Positions 6,542 to 38,372 of a stretch of 64,000 bases of DNA are shown in pieces. The notes below the pieces were generated by a model, which saw only the letters and a list, made by a program, of their open reading frames with translations, was not told the origin of the DNA and did no database searches. The position numbers were made by a program, and so were the translations under genes. Numbering within the stretch: position 1 is the first letter of the stretch; the number at the start of each line of letters is the position of its first letter. The stretch is taken from the IMG/VR virus record IMGVR_UViG_3300024272_002379, one strand, 5' to 3'. This DNA comes from a virus (lineage: Duplodnaviria > Caudoviricetes).

Positions 6542-6736
6542 GTGATTCCTATGGATGAGGAACGCACGCTACTAAGTATAGCTAACACATATGCTAGTAG
6601 TATGACACAAAAAGAATTGGATTTGTGGAAACAACTTCTAAAAGATAGCACTGATAGAAGAGCATACCGCATATTCAATAACGGTCACTGGTACGATACC
6701 AGGAAAGAATACTTTATCAATTACAAAGAAAGGTAA
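6542..6736 (+). CDS. hypothetical protein
   Basis: AAGGAGG SD. Confidence 0.65.
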   Translation: MIPMDEERTLLSIANTYASSMTQKELDLWKQLLKDSTDRRAYRIFNNGHWYDTRKEYFINYKER

Positions 6737-6748
6737 AAAGGTGATTTT

Positions 6749-7822
6749 ATGAAGATTCAGTTTGGCAGAGGATTAAGAACAGTAAATGAAAAGGATTTAT
6801 TCGCTATTGATGTAATACCCACATGGGTAGATATTCCTTACGACATCGTTAAGAAATATGAGGATTTTATCACAGAACTTTGTGAACAAAGTGGGACTAT
6901 AGGCAGATTCAATGAAGCTGTTTATAAAGATATAGTGGCATATGCTACAGAACTTATTAACCCAGTAAAAGAAGAAATGGAGGACACAGATATGGGTACA
7001 ACAACAATTAATGAAACAACTAACAACACAAATGAAATGGAGGAAACAACAATGACAGGAACAGTAAAAGGAAACGTAGAATTAGCAGTGGAAGAAATGA
7101 TGAGTAAGTTTGTAGAAGCTAAAGAAAACATTAAGGTTAATGTTGGTGAAACAGCAGAGGAATACATTGAAAGAGTAGATGACTCAGTTGATGTAATGAA
7201 AGGTGCTCTTGGTAATGTACTTGATGTTCTTGACAAAACATTAGGCTATACAATCTTAAAAGACAGTATCCTTGAAATTATGGAAGCTGGCACTACAGGT
7301 AAATCTTCTAAGAAAGACTTATTTAAAATGGCTAAGAGATGTCGTGAGTTATTAGAAGAAGAAATTGATAACCTTGAATTCTGGGGAGACCAGGAATCAT
7401 TAGCAAAGGCTGTTCAATTAAAAGCTCTTACTGAAGCTGACAGAGATAAATCTGTATTTGAAGCATTCGTATCAGGATGTATTCATATTGCAAAGAGAGT
7501 AGCACGTAAGTTACGTAAATGGTTCCAGGTAGATAACGAGAAATCTGTTGTTGGTGCTATTTGCAGAAGTATTTCTGGATTTACAAAAGCCATTCGTGCT
7601 GGTGTTAAAATCGTATGGAATACAGCTAAGTTTGCAGTATCATTCATCATTGCTGGTGCTGTAAAGGTTGGTGACTTTATCGTAAGAACATTTAAATCTT
7701 TATTCATTAAGATGAAAGAATGGGCTACTGTTCAGTATCAGAAACTTTCTAAAGAAGATGCTGAAGATGATTTTGCAGAAGAAGACTTCATTATTGATGA
7801 AGAAGTTGTCATTGCAGATTAA
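6749..7822 (+). CDS. hypothetical protein with amphipathic C-terminal helices and acidic tail
   Basis: 357-aa ORF; internal in-frame SD+ATG at 6992 and 7052. Confidence 0.8.
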   Translation: MKIQFGRGLRTVNEKDLFAIDVIPTWVDIPYDIVKKYEDFITELCEQSGTIGRFNEAVYKDIVAYATELINPVKEEMEDTDMGTTTINETTNNTNEMEETTMTGTVKGNVELAVEEMMSKFVEAKENIKVNVGETAEEYIERVDDSVDVMKGALGNVLDVLDKTLGYTILKDSILEIMEAGTTGKSSKKDLFKMAKRCRELLEEEIDNLEFWGDQESLAKAVQLKALTEADRDKSVFEAFVSGCIHIAKRVARKLRKWFQVDNEKSVVGAICRSISGFTKAIRAGVKIVWNTAKFAVSFIIAGAVKVGDFIVRTFKSLFIKMKEWATVQYQKLSKEDAEDDFAEEDFIIDEEVVIAD

Positions 7823-22888: not shown

Positions 22889-22963
22889 CGGAATGTAGTT
22901 CAGCTTGGCTAGAACGCTTGTTTTGGGAACAAGAGGTCGCAGGTTCGAATCCTGTCATTCCGA
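22889..22963 (+). tRNA. tRNA-Pro(UGG)
   Basis: Cloverleaf; CTTGT-TTTGGGA-ACAAG; GGTTCGAATCC. Confidence 0.9.
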
Positions 22964-23172
22964 CTAAGACTTTTTGTTACCTCTAAGGCATTCTCTTATA
23001 CGGGTTCCGTATGGGGGATATAAGGAGCGAGGCGAACCTGAATCTTCCAGTCTCTAAAGAAGAATGAAGTGGCGTTTATGGTTATTATTTCCTTTGTACG
23101 ACAACAAAGAAATTTAATTCTTTTTCATTTTTTGGTGTTCCTTTAGGAATAAAGCTGTCTAACGACAGCTAA

Positions 23173-23252
<80 letters not shown>

Positions 23253-23339
23253 TTTTCAAAACGCCATAGTTTTGGAAAACCTCGTTTGTGTAAAAAATCA
23301 TCGAACCTGGCAGTGTATAGGTTAACTGCCACCCCACAT

Positions 23340-23412
23340 GCCCCAATTGCACAGTTGGTAGTGCGACTGATTTGTAATCAGTAGGTCGGCGGTTCGAGTC
23401 CGTCTTGGGGCT
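23340..23412 (+). tRNA. tRNA-Thr(UGU)
   Basis: ACTGA-TTTGTAA-TCAGT; GGTTCGAGTCC. Confidence 0.88.
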
Positions 23413-23857
23413 TTGTTACATAAGCATTTATGCCCTAAGTAGCAGATAGACATAAATGTGTAACAAAACGATGGTCTGCTATAATCGGTAAAGTTGTTCT
23501 ATCCTGTATAGAGGTTATTGGGTCCGATTCAGGTAAAACTAACGAAACAGGACGATTTATTGGCGTACTTTAGTGAAAGCAGAGTCGAGTAACTAAAGAG
23601 AAAATCAATACCCAGTTCATCATTCTTTCTGGGTTACGTGAGACGTTAGTATGGTCTCGCCGTAAAGATTAAGCTGTGATATAGTATCAAAGCTATATTG
23701 CGGAATCAGGTAGGATATTTATATCAGACCTAACGTATACATAAGTTAAAACGAAGGTAATCCAACAGTGAACCGCAGTACAGAAGGTGGGCCTAGTGTT
23801 TGTAATACAAAGTTAGACCGTGCGGGGCTAATGCATGTTTCTTATGATACGGTATAT

Positions 23858-23940
23858 GCAGCGTTGTGATAATGGTAGTCGGGCGGTCTTGAAAACCGTT
23901 GTGTCGAAAGGCATTGGGAGTTCAAGTCTCTCACGCTGCG
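23858..23940 (+). tRNA. tRNA-Ser(UGA)
   Basis: GCGGT-CTTGAAA-ACCGT; long variable arm; G73. Confidence 0.85.
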
Positions 23941-24079
23941 TTTGGCTAAGCATAGGTAGCCGTACCCAGATGACGAAACGACAGTCGTCATATAACAAGC
24001 CTATTGCAGTTTATCATGTACTAAACATGAAGGCTCTTCTGTTTTAGATGCCAGTCTGTGCAGGAGGGCCGAAGTCTCT

Positions 24080-24168
24080 GGAGTGTTACTCAAGTTGGTG
24101 AAGAGGGAACCCTGCTAAGGTTCTAGCGTCCATTATGGGCGGCGAAGGTTCGAGTCCTTCACACTCCG
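24080..24168 (+). tRNA. tRNA-Ser(GCU)
   Basis: GAACC-CTGCTAA-GGTTC; long variable arm; G73. Confidence 0.88.
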
Positions 24169-24434
24169 TTAAGGCTGAAGTGCAATGCTAAATTTTTATG
24201 TAATAGCACGCCCGTAAAAGACGTTGAGGTTGAGGACAATGAGTATGGAAGTGGCCTTTCGAGGCCTAACACGAAAGTTTGACAATAAGTACCGAATGCA
24301 TAAGATTGACCCATCTAAATGCTACGTCAGTGGGAGGAACTTATGTAAATACGTTGATACTACGAAGAAGTATCTGCTTGGAAAACGAATAGGTCATTCC
24401 CGTTTCTAGCATTTCTGTACGAAAACAGAATTAA

Positions 24435-24528
24435 CGGAAGGTAGCCTAGTGGCTAGGCTTGTTGCGAAAAAACGGGTGAAAGCAACTGGAAACGCCGTTT
24501 GACGTGAGTTCGAATCTCACTCTTCCGT
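24435..24528 (+). ncRNA. tRNA-like RNA with 16-nt anticodon-position loop and possible pseudoknot
   Basis: Acceptor CGGAAGG/TCTTCCG, D-arm, T-arm GTGAG-TTCGAAT-CTCAC; no canonical anticodon loop. Confidence 0.65.
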
Positions 24529-24708
24529 CTATATCATCAATATCAACTTACAACAGCCATGGTAATGTTGTGAGAGCGTCATAGGAAGACGTTCTTCCTA
24601 CTTCAAAGAGACTGGAGTATGCAACAATAGCTGATGAGGCTCATGACCCCATAAATTGCAGGATAAATAAACAGCGTCTGCTGAAAGATGACAAAGATGA
24701 TATTATTT

Positions 24709-24782
24709 GGACCATTAGCTCAGTTGGTCAGAGCGGTCGGCTCATAACCGATTGGTCCTTGGTTCGAGTCCAAGATGGTCCA
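24709..24782 (+). tRNA. tRNA-Ile2/Met(CAU)
   Basis: GGACCAT acceptor; GTCGG-CTCATAA-CCGAT; resembles Firmicutes Ile2. Confidence 0.85.
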
Positions 24783-24832
24783 CTAAGAACTCAATACGCC
24801 TCTTAACAATGCGGACCACGTTGAGTCAAAAA

Positions 24833-24957
24833 CCTGGGGGAGCTGTGGCAAGCAGCCATCTGATAAATGGTGAGTTAAAATATGAAGATACTTTATATCG
24901 GCATATTACTATGGTGAAAACCCATTCATTAACTAGGTTCGATTCCTGGCTCCAGGA
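24833..24957 (+). ncRNA. tRNA-Ile(GAU)-like RNA with ~55-60-nt insertion in the variable region
   Basis: CCTGGGG/CTCCAGG acceptor; CCAT-CTGATAA-ATGG; CTAGG-TTCGATT-CCTGG. Confidence 0.6.
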
Positions 24958-25112
24958 CTATAATGCCTAACGGCATTAATATGGAATAGAAACCCCAATC
25001 AATTCCGTGTCAAACGAATTTCAAGACTACCAGGGGGAACCTAACAAGGCTGTTATTTGTGCTGCTTGTGGCGTTAGGCTGGTAGAAGTAACCTACCCCA
25101 ATTACAATTAAA

Positions 25113-25817
25113 TATTGTGCTTTAAAATGCACACATATATCCTGGTGAAGATTGTTTAATCAACATGCCAGGGCATATCTACAGTAAGTATGAAATAATA
25201 TTCGTTACAGGCTTAGCCAGTATGTTTATTATGTAATACTGAGACGTATGAGAACATGGGATACTTTGTTCGGTAGTGCGTTTAACGGATATAAATCAAG
25301 TCCTAAGGACGTGGTGAAGTTCTGTTATGAAGAAGGGAACCCTTCAAACGATTGATATGGCGTAACTTATACATAACGATTAGTGTGACATGCTTTTGGT
25401 GAACAGAATAGACGCTCTCTGTGAGAGAATAACCCTGGGAACTGGATGAGCTGGTAACTCATTACAGATGGCAGGGAATTACCAAACAAGTTCATTCGCT
25501 GTGATACCGAGACAACTCGGAGTATAACGAAAGCATAAGTCGCAAGTAGCCTAAGGCGATAAAAGAGAATATAACAGTGATAAGATGAATGAATGTATCA
25601 TCAAAACATATTCTGAACGATTCGGGTGAAAGCTGGAGGTGCCAATCCTTCATGGGTTTTAGACTGATAAAAGGCTGTTAACCTTTATCAGTTGGGGCAA
25701 GAAGTATGGAAGTCATGAGCCATGCTCAGACTTGTCTCCCCATTCGCATAATAAATCACAATGTATATTTTATAAGATGAATAAAAGTCTATATGGTGTG
25801 TGTTTTAAAGCACAATA
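25113..25817 (+). ncRNA. large ornate ncRNA (GOLLD/ROOL-like)
   Basis: ~700 nt, ORF-free, closed by a ~20-bp terminal stem TATTGTGCTTTAAAATGCACAC/GTGTGTGTTTTAAAGCACAATA; lies inside a phage tRNA cluster. Confidence 0.55.
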
Positions 25818-25836
25818 CTAACAGCAACGGAAACTA

Positions 25837-25865
25837 TTGACATTCCATTGCTGTTTTTGTATAAT
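25837..25865 (+). promoter_or_regulatory. consensus sigma-A promoter upstream of tRNA-Tyr
   Basis: TTGACA-17-TATAAT. Confidence 0.75.
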
Positions 25866-25877
25866 TACAATCAATTC

Positions 25878-25961
25878 GGGTAGGTAGACCGTAGTTGGTA
25901 GCGGGCCAGACTGTAAATCTGGTGCCTTCGGGCTCCGTTAGTTCGATTCTGACCCTGCCCA
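25878..25961 (+). tRNA. tRNA-Tyr(GUA)
   Basis: CCAGA-CTGTAAA-TCTGG; variable arm GCCTTCGGGC. Confidence 0.88.
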
Positions 25962-26148
25962 TTTACATCAAGGACGGTTGGTGACAATTTATTTGTCAAA
26001 GGGATAAGGGCAATACATGTTACCGCTTATCGTGTAGATGTGTAGTGCAAAGTGTATTGGTGTGAGATTGTTTCCATATTAGAGAAACAGCCAATCTTAA
26101 ATGTGAAATATCTAATTAGAGAAGGATAAAGTAACAGCTTTGTATTAT

Positions 26149-26220
26149 AGAATATTAGCTTTAACGGCAAAAGCACACGGCTGATAACCGTGGTCAGCGG
26201 TTCGACTCCGCTATATTCTG
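26149..26220 (+). tRNA. tRNA-Ile(GAU)
   Basis: CACGG-CTGATAA-CCGTG; GGTTCGACTCC; atypical G discriminator. Confidence 0.8.
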
Positions 26221-26441
26221 TTCTTTGTGAGTGTGACTACTTACAATGACCTAAAACGGCTCGTAAACTTGTAGAAAGGGCAGGCCGACGGGTAAGAGTG
26301 CCGCAAGTACCAAATAACCCTGAGGGTAAAACTGGGTTCGCCTCTTTTTGAGCACGGGATGCAGAAAAGAATAGACATCTCTCAAAGTTTAGGTAAATAA
26401 ACAGCTTAGGTTGGTAACCTCTTAGTCAGAAATAACCATAT

Positions 26442-26514
26442 TGGGTATTAGCTCAGTCGGCAGAGCACATGGCTGTTAACCATGGTGTCGTAGGTTCGAG
26501 CCCTACATACCCAG
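26442..26514 (+). tRNA. tRNA-Asn(GUU)
   Basis: CATGG-CTGTTAA-CCATG. Confidence 0.9.
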
Positions 26515-26816
26515 TTTAAATCAAACTGAAACGAGTCAGGCCCAATCGCTCGATTAAGTATGTGAGGAAAGTGAGGTTGGTTGCCAGCTTACTCAAGACT
26601 TCGTGTGCTTGAGGACAGCCCATTTATGGGTCCCCACTGGTTGTAAAATGTCTTCGCATTTAAAGTGGTGTTGTAAAATACATTCCGCTTAATCTTTAGT
26701 TTGGTTTTATTTGGAGAGACATGTTGTAGCGGTTTCTACGTATGTACAAAGGCTCTGGACAAGTCTTATTTTTTGAAACAGCAAGCGTGCGATTATCAGG
26801 TTAGTCTCTCCAGTAT

Positions 26817-26890
26817 AGCGGGGTAGAGCAGTCAGGCAGCTCGCAAGGCTCATAACCTTGAGGTCATAGGTTCAAATCCTATCCCCGCCA
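26817..26890 (+). tRNA. initiator tRNA-fMet(CAU)
   Basis: A1:C72 mismatch; CAAGG-CTCATAA-CCTTG; GGTTCAAATCC. Confidence 0.88.
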
Positions 26891-26963
26891 CTCATGAAAA
26901 CAAGTGATTGTTTTCTGATATCAGGCATTTATCGGGTTCGAATAGATGTAGGTATTGTTTTTA

Positions 26964-34852: not shown

Positions 34853-35567
34853 ACCTTGCTGTATATATATTGGCTTTAATTGGTCAATGAAAATACAACA
34901 AATTAGGACAAACCAATCCAGCAGAGAACATTATCAGCATACTACAGGACATAAGCAGGATAGGACATCACAAACGGCTCGTTAGAGCCTTTATATATAC
35001 AGCAAGGTTGTTGTATAAAGCTCATTATAGGACAGAATAGCTCATAGCAGATGATATCATTAAAATACATAATAACACAAAGTCTTTTATAATCTCTTAT
35101 ATGTATATCGACTTTAAATGCTTAGAGTCAATATACATGTAAGAGAGGACAGGACAACTCAGTGCATTTCTACCACAACAAATGACAATGTATAACAAAG
35201 CAGAGGGGCGATTTTCGCCCCATTTTTATGAATACATATATTGGCTTTAATGGTCAATAGAACAATACAGTGCAGAGCAGTATATAATAGCTCAGTTAAG
35301 AATACCATAGCATAACACAAATGGCTCTTAGAGCCTTTATATGTGTTCATAAATAGATATATTGACTTTAGCAGTCAATAAGCTCAAAAGACCGTAGAAC
35401 AGGACAGCTCATTACAAAGTAGTTCAGGTTAAAACAAGCGAAAACAAAGGCTCGTTAGAGTCAATGTATGTGTTTATGAAACACAAAAGCACAAAGACAG
35501 CATAATACATGTCAGTGCAACATAGGATATTACAAATCATTACAAAATCCTATTGAAAATCAATAGG
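34853..35567 (+). repeat. array of six 5-nt-periodic (NNNYA)n tracts separated by four conserved hairpin cassettes; candidate guide-RNA array
   Basis: Tracts at about 34891-34972, 35020-35079, 35147-35202, 35260-35319, 35382-35446, 35481-35544; cassette motif TATATTGRCTTTA...TTAGAGYC. Confidence 0.85.
35205..35228 (+). terminator. intrinsic terminator-like hairpin within the array
   Basis: GGGGCG-ATTTT-CGCCCC-ATTTTT. Confidence 0.6.
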
Positions 35568-35585: not shown

Positions 35586-36242
35586 ATGGCAGCTAAAGTT
35601 ACAGAAGAAGTAAAAGAGATTCAGAACAAAATTAATTTCGCTACAGCAACAATTACAATTGTTGGCGATAGTGACCTTATTCTTAACAAAATGAGAGATA
35701 GCACTACTCAGGAACTTGCAGATAAACAGGAAGGTAAAGTACAGGGTACAAAGAAACCTGTAAACATGTACGAGCATCTTGTTGGTTCCATTCATTGGCT
35801 CAAGGGAGAAGAAACAGACTATACAGAAGAAGGCTGGTTGAATGCATTAAAGAATAATGTTCCAGGTTATCCATCTTCAGGTATGAAGAAAGCATTATGT
35901 GATGCTGTTGTTCGTGTATTAGGCGAAACATATAGCACAAAGTTCAATGCTAACGTACAGATTCTTAATAGCTTCTTACCAATCGAATTTGGTTCAAGTG
36001 CTTATGATAAATCATTATTTAGCCCTCAGAAGGGTAGTCCAGTTCTTTGTTACAGAAATGTATTCAGAGATTGGAAAACAACATTTACAATTAAATATAT
36101 TCCAGACAATTATTCATTAGACCGTATCATCGAAGTTATTAACTGTGCAGGTTTTGCATGTGGTATCGGTAGCCACAGACCATCAAGTAAAGGTGGCTCC
36201 AACGGTATGTTCCACGTAGAATCCGTTATGGAAGTAGTTTAA
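35586..36242 (+). CDS. stand-alone RAMP/Cas7-like RRM-fold protein
   Basis: N-terminal strand TITIVGDSDLIL; PGYPSSGMKKAL helix; FRDWKTTFTI strand; C-terminal G-rich loop GFACGIGSHRPSSKGGSNGMFHV. Confidence 0.7.
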   Translation: MAAKVTEEVKEIQNKINFATATITIVGDSDLILNKMRDSTTQELADKQEGKVQGTKKPVNMYEHLVGSIHWLKGEETDYTEEGWLNALKNNVPGYPSSGMKKALCDAVVRVLGETYSTKFNANVQILNSFLPIEFGSSAYDKSLFSPQKGSPVLCYRNVFRDWKTTFTIKYIPDNYSLDRIIEVINCAGFACGIGSHRPSSKGGSNGMFHVESVMEVV

Positions 36243-36249
36243 GTACATA

Positions 36250-36980
36250 TGGGAAGGAAAACCCTATAATAAACCGCTAAGATGAAGGCAGACCAAGGCT
36301 GTTGCAGGACCTGAAAAGGCGTTCGCACTTAGATGTAATAAAAGCGAAGATTAGGAGACTCATATGCAAAACCCTGACATATGACATGGAGAAATACCGT
36401 TGAATGCAACCAGGTAGTTAAGATTTTATACCGACAGAAACGACCGTTACTGCGTAGCTCAAAGTCGGAAGTTTACTTAATTGAAATAAAAAACAAATAG
36501 AGAGCAAAGGTAACAGCTAAGATATTACGACCTCATGGGTGCCAACCACGCACACGAATCCGTATTAAATCTGACGTAGAGGCAAGTTCACTTAGATGCA
36601 ATCAAGAACTTTAGCGTGGGTGCTTCACAACTGCATAAATATTTTGAGAAGGAAAACTCGCTATCAAACCGCTAGGTTATGGGTCCCTTACCATGTTTAA
36701 AGACCTTGAACTCCTAGAGCGTAAGCATTTGTAACAAAAGTTTTAAAATTGAATAGTGGCTTTAGTGGTTTGATGGAAACCATCTCCCAGGAGGGGACTG
36801 GTGCGAATGAACCCAGGAGACAGGACTAACTCCTTACACCAGCGAGTCTTGAATTAGACCGCTCGGAGAAACGATGCCCAGCTAAGTTTTCAGAGGGATA
36901 AGGTATGCTTTGCAGGAAACCCTCGGTGCTGTTTGCCTATTTCTCCTACCAGGCTTCTTAGATGCAATAAAAAGACCGAT
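36250..36980 (+). ncRNA. structured ncRNA region with five tandem pseudoknot modules
   Basis: Covarying CTAAG/CTTAG, TTAAG/CTTAA and CTAGG/CCTAG pairs followed by TGNAAY-AAA. Confidence 0.6.
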
Positions 36981-37241
36981 AAAACAAAATAGGATATAGT
37001 TGGTAATATACGTAGTTTCGGGTTCGAGGAACCATTTTCTGTACCATCCACAGGAATAAACGAAGAGGAATTACAAGTACATTGGCGACAAGGTGTGCGA
37101 ACAAAGACGACCATTACAGTCATTCATGGTTAATCGTGTACAAAATGTATGAGAGTATCATATGCACTGCTCTCATACTACTTGTCGAACGAAATAAGTA
37201 TTGAAATATTTTTCAAATCTGTTACAATATATAACACATAT

Positions 37242-37313
37242 AGGGCTATCGCCAAGCGGTAAGGCACAGGATTTTGATTCCTGCATCCGTTGGTTCGAAT
37301 CCAACTAGCCCTG
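37242..37313 (+). tRNA. tRNA-Gln(UUG)
   Basis: GCCAAGCGGTAAGGC D-arm; CAGGA-TTTTGAT-TCCTG. Confidence 0.9.
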
Positions 37314-37398
37314 TTCATAGTGGTCAGTGTTAATGCACACTGTAAATAAAGTAGCCTCTCGATTGGCTTTCAATGGTCAGCTTTAACCACTATAACAT

Positions 37399-37573
37399 AC
37401 ACGGGTTGTCTGAGCTGGTGAGAGATGATATCTTATCAATAGGCCAGTGAACTAGGTGCCAACCACTCTGATTAGAGTAGGGACATGTGAAAGTTATAAG
37501 GGAAGGAACGCTGATACGTAGCATTGTTTTGGTAACTTGATGAGTAGTAGAGGTTCGATTCCTTGCCCGTGTG
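37399..37573 (+). ncRNA. tRNA-like RNA with a ~120-nt domain replacing the anticodon arm
   Basis: ACACGGG/CCCGTGT acceptor; GGTTCGATTCC T-loop; CTTATCAA/TTGATGAG internal stem. Confidence 0.55.
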
Positions 37574-37588
37574 TTAAAGACCAAGCAA

Positions 37589-37661
37589 AGGTAAGTAGCT
37601 CAGTTGGGAGAGCACCCTGCATTGAGCGGGGTCGTCGCAGGTTCGAGTCCTGCCTTGTCTT
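37589..37661 (+). tRNA. atypical tRNA (loop CATTGAG, nominal UUG anticodon without U33)
   Basis: TAGCTCAGTTGGGAGAGC D-arm, GCAGG-TTCGAGT-CCTGC T-arm, weak acceptor stem. Confidence 0.6.
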
Positions 37662-37823
37662 GATATAAGCTGAAGTCTTGAAGCCAAGTATAGTCATGCG
37701 GTGGGTGGATATTTACATTAGGTCCAATGAGATTAGACTTTAGTATCTATCAAATAGAACTGTTGACTAAAAATAATGCCCAGCAAAAACCATATGCTGG
37801 GCTATTTTATTGGAGGAAATTAT

Positions 37824-38372
37824 ATGAATTTAATAGTAACTCTTTGCCTTATATGTATTTTTATTGAAATATATCATGTCTGTTACCATGATTACATATA
37901 TAATCAGATATTTAATCCAATGTCAAAAAGACATGAAATGATTAAGGCATATCAAGATTTATGGCGTAGCCATGTAAAATTCGTAAAAGGCTATAGAGAC
38001 AATAAGAAAAAAGAAGAAATCAGCCTTGAGGACATTGAGGCTATACAAAAACTAACACAATTTACAGAACATTTTGGAACAAAAAGCTCATTCTTTAAGA
38101 AAGAATTCGTAGATTATTTTGGCTCTCTAATGGTTGGTAAATTTGTTCTTCAGCAGTTCATTGAGATTGCGTATTCAATTATTATTATCATTATAGCGTT
38201 AAACTTACCAATTGGTATAGGACTTGTATTTTACATATTTATGATATTAATTTCATATTTCGCTCAGCAAAACGAAAAAGCCAATGCTGAAGATAAAATT
38301 AAATATCTCTACATAGCAGATACAATAATCTGCATTACGGTGTACTTTGTAATTATTTTTGCATATTGTTAA
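37824..38372 (+). CDS. hypothetical membrane protein
   Basis: Several TM helices; GGAGG SD before ATG 37824. Confidence 0.75.
   Translation: MNLIVTLCLICIFIEIYHVCYHDYIYNQIFNPMSKRHEMIKAYQDLWRSHVKFVKGYRDNKKKEEISLEDIEAIQKLTQFTEHFGTKSSFFKKEFVDYFGSLMVGKFVLQQFIEIAYSIIIIIIALNLPIGIGLVFYIFMILISYFAQQNEKANAEDKIKYLYIADTIICITVYFVIIFAYC

What the first reader, a model, noticed from the sequence alone, without database searches (positions are those of the whole stretch)
36250..36980. Five tandem pseudoknot modules with compensatory changes directly downstream of the RAMP gene
Seen: P1 pairs CTAAG/CTTAG (36277/36328), TTAAG/CTTAA (36418/36476), CTAAG/CTTAG (36517/36591), CTAGG/CCTAG (36672/36713) and CTAAG/CTTAG (36882/36957). 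Each is followed by TGNAAY-A-rich sequence and a second crossing stem that differs per copy (TTCGC/GCGAA, GTTT/AAAC, AAGTTC/GAACTT, GAACT/AGTTT; weaker in copy 5). The interiors are unrelated 35-70-nt sequences. Copies 1 and 4 share an upstream GRG-AAGGAAAA-CYC hairpin. Inference: an undescribed modular ncRNA, such as a nuclease-resistant scaffold, a type III antitoxin mimic, a protein sponge or a ribozyme array.
Basis: partly seen in the sequence, partly recalled or inferred. Interest (0 to 1): 0.75.

Follow-up and report, generated by a model that had tools for sequence, protein, structure and literature searches.

The report
Pseudoknot RNA modules beside phage VIPR
The gene-free stretch after a CRISPR-like (VIPR) protein gene of a large gut or rumen phage encodes five copies of a small, knotted RNA fold that compensating mutations preserve. 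It matches no catalogued RNA family, it is not the system's guide RNA, and its function is unknown.

Summary
All five copies have a perfect 5-bp P1.

I found 12 more copies in four related ~205-210-kb phages. P1 is paired in 17 of 17 copies, with two kinds of two-sided change and no one-sided change. P2 beats mismatched partners (p about 0.003). The 5' hairpin keeps its AAGGAAAA loop on five different stems. No Rfam family matches.

The gene upstream is a Vipr protein, the Cas7-like RAMP of the VIPR systems described in 2026 preprints. Its guide RNAs are the 5-nt-periodic array upstream of the gene (34855-35470). The modules have no 5-nt period and evolve slowly, so they are not guides.

Copies also sit inside tRNA arrays, and one follows its own consensus promoter. 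The family therefore belongs to the phage's non-coding RNA/tRNA island, not strictly to vipr.

The smallest copy (~70 nt with its hairpin) is little more than the hairpin and a ~40-nt H-type pseudoknot with an A-rich loop, so the core is the functional unit. My best guess, at low confidence, is a protein-recognition or decoy module. Function is unproven.

The scan has noted comparable, untested pseudoknot arrays in other phages' tRNA clusters, and this same stretch was also read in another window.

The parts
35586..36242 (+). vipr gene (218-aa Cas7-like RAMP). Context only, not part of the modules.
   Evidence: phmmer hit to PDB 36pp 'SUSP1 Vipr protein', E = 4e-5. One homologue carries PF03787. 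The AF2 model (pLDDT 81) gives Csm3/Cmr4 as top Foldseek hits.
34855..35470 (+). The VIPR guide (vrRNA) array. Each unit has a 5' hairpin ATTGGC..GTCAAT, a 5-nt-periodic YA(G)NN tract and a 3' hairpin GGCTC..GAGCC followed by a T-rich tail. Context only.
   Evidence: Autocorrelation is 0.45 at lag 5 and 0.42 at lag 10 against a background of about 0.25. The same architecture with different tracts occurs in L005, L006 and L121.
36246..36348 (+). Module M1: 5' hairpin (loop AAGGAAAA, 36254-36261), P1 36277-36281/36328-36332, P2 36322-36326/36344-36348, L3 ATGTAATAAAA.
   Evidence: Orthologues are in L120, L002 (A) and L121 (Y). The L121 P2 is ATTGC/GCAAT, two two-sided changes.
36360..36414 (+). 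Linker domain: hairpin 36360-36366/36378-36384 with conserved loop AAAAYCCUR. The loop CCTG (36373-36376) pairs with CAGG (36411-36414). The domain includes the M2 5' hairpin ATGG/CCGT (36386-36400).
   Evidence: The stems differ completely in the window, L120 and L121. The loop pairing changes from CCUG/CAGG to CCUA/UAGG in L121.
36418..36494 (+). Module M2: P1 TTAAG/CTTAA (36418-36422/36476-36480), interior helix CCGAC/GTCGG, P2 GTTT/AAAC.
   Evidence: The orthologue in L120 has P1 CTAAG/CTTAG and interior helix GTAAC/GTTAC, both changed on both sides.
36517..36622 (+). Module M3: P1 36517-36521/36591-36595, P2 AAGTTC/GAACTT (36584-36589/36606-36611), structured 69-nt interior and a conserved 3' extension TAGCGTGGG.
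   Evidence: In the three-orthologue alignment, three interior pairs change on both sides. P2 is invariant.
36645..36743 (+). Module M4: 5' hairpin GAG-AAGGAAAA-CTC, P1 CTAGG/CCTAG (36672-36676/36713-36717), P2 GAACT/AGTTT with one G-U pair, 21-nt L3.
   Evidence: Recovered by model R1 although it was left out of the model.
36882..36976 (+). Module M5: P1 36882-36886/36957-36961, L3 ATGCAATAAAAA. P2 is weak, forming only with a bulge.
   Evidence: The 3' half is orthologous to module C of L002.
36977..37185 (+). Conserved non-coding tail of the array, ending in a hairpin (arms 37140-37155/37170-37185) whose stem covaries with L002. The tRNA-Gln promoter follows at 37201-37228.

Best explanation
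Shown: the stretch encodes five paralogous copies of a previously uncatalogued small RNA on the + strand. Its conserved core is an H-type pseudoknot. A 5-bp P1 of almost fixed sequence (CUAAG/CUUAG) is crossed by a 4-6-bp P2 of free sequence. The strand joining them is 10-11 nt long and A-rich (..UGNAAYAAAA), which is the geometry in which such a loop lies in the minor groove of P1. A hairpin with the loop AAGGAAAA often precedes the core. The loop between the P1 and P2 5' strands holds anything from 4 to about 80 nt. The family belongs to the non-coding RNA/tRNA island of one clade of ~205-210-kb gut or rumen phages. That island also holds a VIPR system, but the modules are not VIPR guide RNAs. 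Inferred: the smallest copy is essentially hairpin plus pseudoknot, and what is conserved is base identity in P1, L3 and the hairpin loop rather than pairing alone. The core is therefore most likely a recognition unit for a protein, and tandem copies would then act as a multivalent binding platform or decoy, as type III antitoxin arrays and CsrB-type sponges do. The partner is unknown.
For: P1 is paired in 17 of 17 copies (85 of 85 cells). Its variants are CUAAG/CUUAG (12 copies), UUAAG/CUUAA (4) and CUAGG/CCUAG (1), with no one-sided change. A register-constrained permutation test of P2 on 12 non-orthologous copies gave 51 of 20000. The M1 and L121 P2 differ by two two-sided changes. Interior helices covary. 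The hairpin stems are GGG/CCC, GAG/CUC, CAG/CUG, AAG/CUU and AGAG/CUCU with a constant loop. G-U pairs occur only when the + strand is read. Model R1 recovers the two held-out copies M4 and A and finds further copies in tRNA arrays of two complete phage genomes and of L121. The minimal copy in L205 has a 4-nt L1. One copy follows a 12-of-12 sigma-70 promoter. No ORF is conserved. No Rfam family matches. There is no 5-nt period.
Against: No partner protein has been identified and there are no expression data. Folding energies are unremarkable. P2 is weak or absent in 5 of 17 copies, and it is broken in the L120 orthologue of M1. Only five phage genomes carry the family, and all were reached through vipr or close relatives, so both the covariation sample and the context statistics are small and biased. 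Single scattered copies fit a sponge less well than tandem arrays do.
Confidence: 0.4

Rival explanations
1. End caps or processing punctuation. The 5' hairpin and the 3' pseudoknot block exonucleases or mark cleavage sites, so that long untranslated transcripts (the vipr 3' region and tRNA arrays) are cut into stable pieces.
For: M1-type copies start within 10 nt of an upstream stop codon in the window, L002 and L121, and overlap the stop in L120. One copy sits at the 5' end of a transcript. Other copies lie in tRNA-array spacers.
Against: Stems of 5 bp are weak blocks compared with an ordinary GC hairpin. Five copies in a row with nothing obvious between them to protect is unexplained. No copy abuts a tRNA end. 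Conservation of base identity in P1 and L3 is not needed for a steric block.
Confidence: 0.2
2. A VIPR accessory RNA, that is, an atypical vrRNA or a Vipr-binding regulator or cap.
For: An M1-type copy lies directly after the vipr stop codon both here and in L121, whose Vipr is only ~50% identical. SUSP1 vrRNAs end in a 3' pseudoknot (bioRxiv 10.64898/2026.04.26.720920 and .720927).
Against: There is no 5-nt periodicity (lag-5 autocorrelation 0.21 against 0.45 for the true array). Orthologues are about 71-78% identical by blastn where they align, whereas the guide tracts look entirely different between the same phages. In three close relatives (L002, L120, L001) genes separate vipr from the modules, or the module has moved 3.3 kb upstream. 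A fourth, L119, has genes after vipr and no module in the 576 bases available. The other ~50% Vipr relatives have no module after vipr, and no module motif was seen in the ~45% Vipr relatives scanned. Copies also occur inside tRNA arrays.
Confidence: 0.12
3. A type III antitoxin mimic: decoys that neutralise ToxN/CptN-type abortive-infection nucleases of the host, like pseudo-ToxI of phage phiTE.
For: The architecture matches CptI, a 45-nt H-type pseudoknot with a 9-nt A-rich minor-groove loop containing a U kink (PMC4627078). The modules are phage-borne and tandem. ToxN genes occur in 20 of 121 sampled genomes of the family of the Blautia MAG G005 (Lachnospiraceae by its record title), which is a guess at the host group. 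The precedent is PMC3475682.
Against: The units are not near-identical and range from about 70 to about 150 nt. No toxin gene is adjacent. Model R1 found nothing in 151 genomes of that family. The core pattern gave only coding-sequence chance hits in 401 genomes of the order of G005, 8 against 3 for the control. The antitoxin repeats found beside sampled ToxN genes share no core with the modules.
Confidence: 0.1
4. A new self-cleaving ribozyme class that processes the non-coding transcripts.
For: The core is conserved and pseudoknotted, with freely variable peripheral insertions. Copies are tandem and tRNA-linked. Hammerhead-interspersed vrRNA arrays and tRNA-linked theta ribozymes are precedents (bioRxiv 10.64898/2026.04.26.720920; PMC10879173).
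Against: No known ribozyme family matches. The strand order differs from HDV-like ribozymes. No copy lies within 5 nt of a tRNA. Few nucleotides are strictly invariant and unpaired.
Confidence: 0.08
5. Not an RNA structure: a DNA-level repeat, or remnants of a small gene's 3' end.
For: In L120 a small ORF reads through the hairpin and stops at the TAA inside GCTAAG. The P1 variants CTAAG, CTAGG and GTTAAG all keep a stop codon.
Against: Single-base indels in the hairpin loop break the frame in L001 and L002 B. The implied peptides are poorly conserved while the stems compensate. G-U pairs are strand-specific. P1, P2 and the interior helices covary.
Confidence: 0.03

Closest known systems
VIPR vrRNAs (Vipr plus guide RNA; type II examples are phage SUSP1 and a Pseudomonas fulva prophage; bioRxiv 10.64898/2026.04.26.720920 and .720927)
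   Same: They lie next to a vipr gene. They are small non-coding RNAs in arrays with a constant pseudoknotted element and a variable part.
   Different: The modules have no pentanucleotide repeat tract. The variable part is enclosed by the pseudoknot and is itself folded. They evolve slowly. The locus already has a bona fide periodic array upstream.
Type III antitoxin RNAs (ToxI, CptI, TenpI) and pseudo-ToxI of phage phiTE (PMC4627078, PMC3401426, PMC3475682)
   Same: Tandem H-type pseudoknots with an A-rich loop in the minor groove of stem 1, and there is a phage-borne precedent.
   Different: Antitoxin repeats are near-identical, 31-62 nt long and sit upstream of a toxin gene. Here the units differ, are longer and have no toxin. 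No host antitoxin with this core was found.
Phage T4 stable RNAs species 1 and 2 (RNA C and RNA D) of the tRNA gene cluster
   Same: Small structured phage RNAs of unknown function embedded among tRNA genes.
   Different: Homology was not tested because no sequence was on hand. T4 has single genes, not a modular pseudoknot family. This comparison rests on my own knowledge.
ROOL and GOLLD large ornate RNAs (PMC12286853); ROOL is present in this window at 25117-25810
   Same: Phage-borne, tRNA-adjacent structured RNAs without a known function.
   Different: Those are single 500-800-nt folds with fixed architecture. Here 70-150-nt units vary in number and order between close relatives.

Membership tests
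VIPR vrRNA | Tract of at least four tandem pentanucleotide units (YNNGG or a related consensus) | tested here: not met
   Lag-5 autocorrelation is 0.21 in the module interiors against 0.45 in the upstream array. No YNNGG or NNNGG runs are present in the window.
VIPR vrRNA | Variable positions hypervariable between close relatives | tested here: not met
   M3 and the M5 3' half align to their L002 counterparts at 78% and 71% identity, and the three M3 orthologues align column by column. By eye, the guide tracts look entirely different in the same phages.
VIPR vrRNA | Encoded beside vipr | tested here: inconclusive
   True for M1 here and for Y in L121. Other copies lie in tRNA arrays or kilobases away. 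All loci were found through vipr, so the sample is biased.
VIPR system (the neighbouring gene) | Vipr-type minimal RAMP protein | tested here: met
Type III antitoxin (ToxI/CptI/TenpI) | Near-identical tandem repeats of 31-62 nt | tested here: not met
   Units are about 70-150 nt with unrelated interiors.
Type III antitoxin (ToxI/CptI/TenpI) | Cognate ToxN/CptN/TenpN toxin gene directly downstream | tested here: not met
   tRNA genes follow the array. The next two ORFs have no Pfam or PHROG toxin match.
Type III antitoxin (ToxI/CptI/TenpI) | H-type pseudoknot with an A-rich loop on stem 1 | tested here: met
   P1 and P2 covariation and L3 composition. The tertiary contacts are inferred, not shown.
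HDV-like / theta ribozyme | Nested double pseudoknot in the order P1-P2-P3-P3'-P1'-P4-P2', with the cleavage site within 5 nt of a tRNA | tested here: not met
   The strand order here is P1, interior hairpin, P2, P1', L3, P2'. The nearest tRNAs are more than 100 nt away. No Rfam HDV match.
Any Rfam 15 family | Covariance-model match | tested here: not met
   Nothing above noise at E up to 10 over 36000-38000, nor at E up to 5 in the tRNA-array copies.
T4 RNA C / RNA D | Sequence or structure homology | not tested

The most novel reading that the evidence does not exclude
The modules are a new kind of phage counter-defence or self-processing RNA. Either they are a multi-copy pseudoknot decoy that neutralises a host RNA-binding defence nuclease (of the ToxN/CptN type or another), or they are a new self-cleaving ribozyme class that punctuates phage non-coding transcripts.
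Probability: 0.15. Interest if true: 0.8.

Novelty: new variant of a known kind. Interest (0 to 1): 0.5.

Why it matters
Large phages keep islands of tRNAs and structured RNAs whose roles are mostly unknown. This is a compact motif of about 40 nt, supported by covariation, with a clear minimal form that can be synthesised and tested. It sits next to a newly described RNA-guided system. Showing that it is not the guide RNA of that system prevents a mis-annotation of VIPR loci. If it proves to be a decoy or a ribozyme it would add a new RNA tool to phage-host conflict. Several comparable arrays noted elsewhere in this scan suggest that pseudoknot modules in phage tRNA clusters are a general and unstudied phenomenon.

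Tried and rejected
- **Known RNA families:** Rfam at gathering and permissive thresholds gave nothing for the modules.
- **Public phage genomes:** blastn of the region against 50,697 phage records matched only the tRNA-Gln gene.
- **VIPR guide test:** searches for YNNGG/NNNGG runs and for periodicity in the modules were negative.
- **Stability:** single-module folding z-scores were not significant.
- **Antisense targets:** no significant complementarity between the modules and the rest of the window.
- **More copies in the window:** none in the main tRNA array, even with filters off.
- **IMG/VR pattern scans:** three scans added no new phage beyond the two relatives. The L004 hit is not a module and has no vipr.
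- **Metagenome and GTDB scans with the Vipr alignment:** two short close relatives plus L121 from metagenomes, and no close relative in genomes.
- **Host-genome searches for the core, and comparison with toxI repeats:** negative.
- **Coding reading of the hairpin:** rejected because indels break the frame.
- **Theta/HDV-like ribozyme:** rejected on strand order and distance to tRNAs.
- **Complementarity to tRNA 3' ends (lead from note e1-5380924):** UGGU occurs in only three tRNA-array copies and is not a family feature.
- About 20 close Vipr homologues from ENA, Logan and NCBI contigs (for example P0003, P0006, P0010, P0012, P0017, P0022) could therefore not be fetched.

Full report
**Setting**

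The window is part of a large phage genome at about 35% GC. It carries a tmRNA, a ROOL RNA, ten tRNAs at 22889-26891 and two tRNA-Gln genes at 37241 and 37588. The flagged stretch is the first 750 nt of a 1.5-kb gene-free gap between ORF 35586-36242 and ORF 37776-38372. Its G+C is raised to 0.41. Neither strand holds a conserved ORF. The short ORFs in the window and in the relative L002 are unrelated to each other.

**The observation**

- **P1:** a perfect 5-bp complement in all five copies at the stated coordinates.
- **3' motif:** CTTAGATGYAAT occurs three times without mismatch in 64 kb, all three here.
- **P2:** its 5' strand ends 0-1 nt before the P1 3' strand, and its 3' strand follows a 10-11-nt A-rich loop. 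It is TTCGC/GCGAA in M1, GTTT/AAAC in M2 and AAGTTC/GAACTT in M3. In M4 it is GAACT/AGTTT with a G-U pair and a longer loop. M5 has only a bulged, weak version.
- **Upstream hairpin:** copies 1 and 4 share a 30-nt upstream segment that contains G[G/A]G-AAGGAAAA-C[C/T]C.

This is the topology of an H-type pseudoknot. L1 is long and variable (the "interior"), L2 is one base, and L3 is A-rich and placed to run along the minor groove of P1.

**Relatives**

I built a covariance model (R1) from 11 copies. It recovered two held-out copies, M4 in the window and A in L002. Run over two complete ~210-kb relatives, it found further copies.

The 17 copies known so far are:
- five in the window;
- five in IMGVR_UViG_3300012983_000001: A, B and C after three ORFs downstream of vipr, and two inside its tRNA array;
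- two in IMGVR_UViG_3300023371_000067: X, 3.3 kb upstream of vipr behind a 12-of-12 TTGACA-18-TATAAT promoter, and one in its tRNA array;
- three on a short contig, L120;
- two in a 204-kb phage, L121, whose Vipr is only ~50% identical. One lies directly after the vipr stop codon and the other inside its tRNA array.

No module motif was seen in the ~45% Vipr relatives scanned (regex over all loci, model R1 over a subset). The other ~50% relatives have no module directly after vipr. None was found in the rest of the window.

**Evidence for structure**

*P1.* It is paired in all 85 cells. Twelve copies have CUAAG/CUUAG, four have UUAAG/CUUAA and one has CUAGG/CCUAG. No copy shows a change on one side only. 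One of the switches separates the orthologues M2 and M2'.

*P2.* For each copy I scored the best helix that starts 0-1 nt from P1 against its own downstream segment and against other copies' segments. On 12 non-orthologous copies, own partners beat shuffled assignments in all but 51 of 20000 permutations. M1 and its L121 orthologue differ by two two-sided changes (UUCGC/GCGAA against AUUGC/GCAAU). P2 is poor in M5, C, A and one tRNA-array copy, and it is broken in the L120 orthologue of M1.

*Interior helices.* M2 has CCGAC/GUCGG where L120 has GUAAC/GUUAC. In the three M3 orthologues, three pairs change on both sides.

*5' hairpin.* It keeps the loop AAGGAAAA (AAGGAUA or AAGGUA in two copies) on the stems GGG/CCC, GAG/CUC, CAG/CUG, AAG/CUU and AGAG/CUCU.

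*Linker between M1 and M2.* A hairpin there has three entirely different stems in the window, L120 and L121. Its loop AAAAYCCUR pairs with a downstream YAGG, changing from CCUG/CAGG to CCUA/UAGG.

*Strand.* G-U pairs appear only when the + strand is read.

*Stability.* Nested folding energies of single modules are ordinary. The case therefore rests on comparative evidence.

**What it is not**

ORF 35586-36242 is a Vipr protein.
- It matches the solved SUSP1 Vipr chain.
- One homologue carries the RAMP Pfam domain.
- Its AF2 model resembles Csm3/Cmr4.

VIPR systems pair this protein with guide RNAs built of about 9-16 pentanucleotide units and a 3' tail (bioRxiv 10.64898/2026.04.26.720920 and .720927). 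Such RNAs exist here, but upstream of the gene. At 34855-35470 there are units with a 5' hairpin, a tract with strong 5-nt periodicity (YA(G)NN, lag-5 autocorrelation 0.45) and a 3' hairpin with a T-rich tail. Relatives have the same architecture with different tracts. Other agents of this scan reached the same reading.

The modules show no 5-nt period (0.21). They are also much better conserved between relatives than the guide tracts. They are therefore not vrRNAs.

They also match no Rfam family. They lack the strand order and the tRNA adjacency of theta/HDV-like ribozymes (PMC10879173). They are not coding. An ORF in L120 does run through the hairpin to the TAA in GCTAAG, but single-base indels in other copies break that frame while the stems still compensate.

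**Context**

All copies lie in the phage's non-coding RNA/tRNA island, which also holds the VIPR system. M1-type copies begin within 10 nt of an upstream stop codon in three phages and overlap the stop in a fourth. Others lie in tRNA spacers more than 100 nt from any tRNA. One lies at the start of its own transcript. The number and order of copies differ even between phages whose Vipr is 85-89% identical. Because every locus was reached through vipr, the link to VIPR cannot be measured fairly.

**Mechanism**

The minimal copy (L205) reads: hairpin, UAAACC, G, CUAAG, AAGA, AAGG, U, CUUAG, CUGUAACAAAA, CCUU. It is a textbook compact H-type pseudoknot with a 4-nt L1. The function therefore lies in the core, and the 35-80-nt interiors are tolerated expansions.

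What is conserved is base identity in P1, in L3 (..UGNAAYAAAA) and in the hairpin loop. P2 and the stems are free to vary. That pattern is typical of a surface read by a protein, or of tertiary contacts.

Tandem arrays of such units resemble multivalent decoys. The closest architectural analogue is CptI of Eubacterium rectale, a 45-nt H-type pseudoknot with a 9-nt A-rich loop that has a U kink on stem 1 (PMC4627078). ToxN toxins are common in the family of the Blautia MAG G005 (Lachnospiraceae by its record title), my guess at the host group: 20 of 121 sampled genomes carry one. However:
- the module core was not found in 151 genomes of that family or 401 genomes of its order;
- the sampled toxI repeats share nothing with it;
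- the modules are not identical repeats;
- no toxin gene is adjacent.

I therefore commit only to "protein-recognition or decoy module" at 0.4. End-capping or processing (0.2), a VIPR accessory role (0.12), a specific antitoxin mimic (0.1) and a ribozyme (0.08) are rivals.

**Novelty and score**

This is a real RNA family supported by covariation that is absent from Rfam. It is so far known from five phage genomes and its function is unknown. It belongs to a known general kind, small structured RNAs in phage tRNA clusters, and this scan has noted comparable but untested pseudoknot arrays in other phages. The neighbouring VIPR system is already published. Interest is 0.5.

Noticed in passing
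window 34855-35470 (also L005 2890-3390, L006 2550-3330, L121 9240-9480): The true VIPR guide array lies upstream of vipr. It has units of YA(G)NN rather than GGYNN, each flanked by a 5' hairpin ATTGGC..GTCAAT and a 3' hairpin GGCTC..GAGCC followed by TTTATAT. Other agents of the scan have already reported it.
   Followed up: partly
window 37400-37590: A tRNA-like RNA of about 170-190 nt lies between the two tRNA-Gln genes. It has a possible 7-bp acceptor stem (ACACGGG..CCCGTGT) and the motif GGTTCGATTCC, with a large insertion. ARAGORN and Rfam did not call it. L002 has a counterpart at about 6705-6880. Over-long tRNAs of 108-112 nt also occur in L203 and L202.
   Followed up: no
window 37355-37385; L001 5725-5755: Just after tRNA-Gln there is a hairpin, GATTGGCTTTCAATGGTCAGC, that resembles the 5' handle of the upstream vrRNAs. 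It may be a solo or degenerate vrRNA.
   Followed up: no
window 37140-37185; L002 6525-6570: A hairpin ends the module array. Its stem differs completely between relatives but its loop (TCATATGC) is shared. It has no clear U-tract, so its role as a terminator is uncertain. The tRNA-Gln promoter (TTGAAA-16-TACAAT) follows at 37201-37228.
   Followed up: partly
L119 700-1261; L120 780-935: A small conserved ORF (about 45-50 aa, M[AG]KV..LQDGWGGS..NCAPGWPSQED) is inserted between vipr and the modules in two close relatives. In L120 it reads into the M1 hairpin and stops at the TAA of GCTAAG.
   Followed up: partly
window 36744-36881: The 138-nt spacer between M4 and M5 is G-rich and has three consecutive units that end in GG (CCAGG AGGGG ACTGG). 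It has no counterpart in L002. It was not assigned to any element.
   Followed up: no
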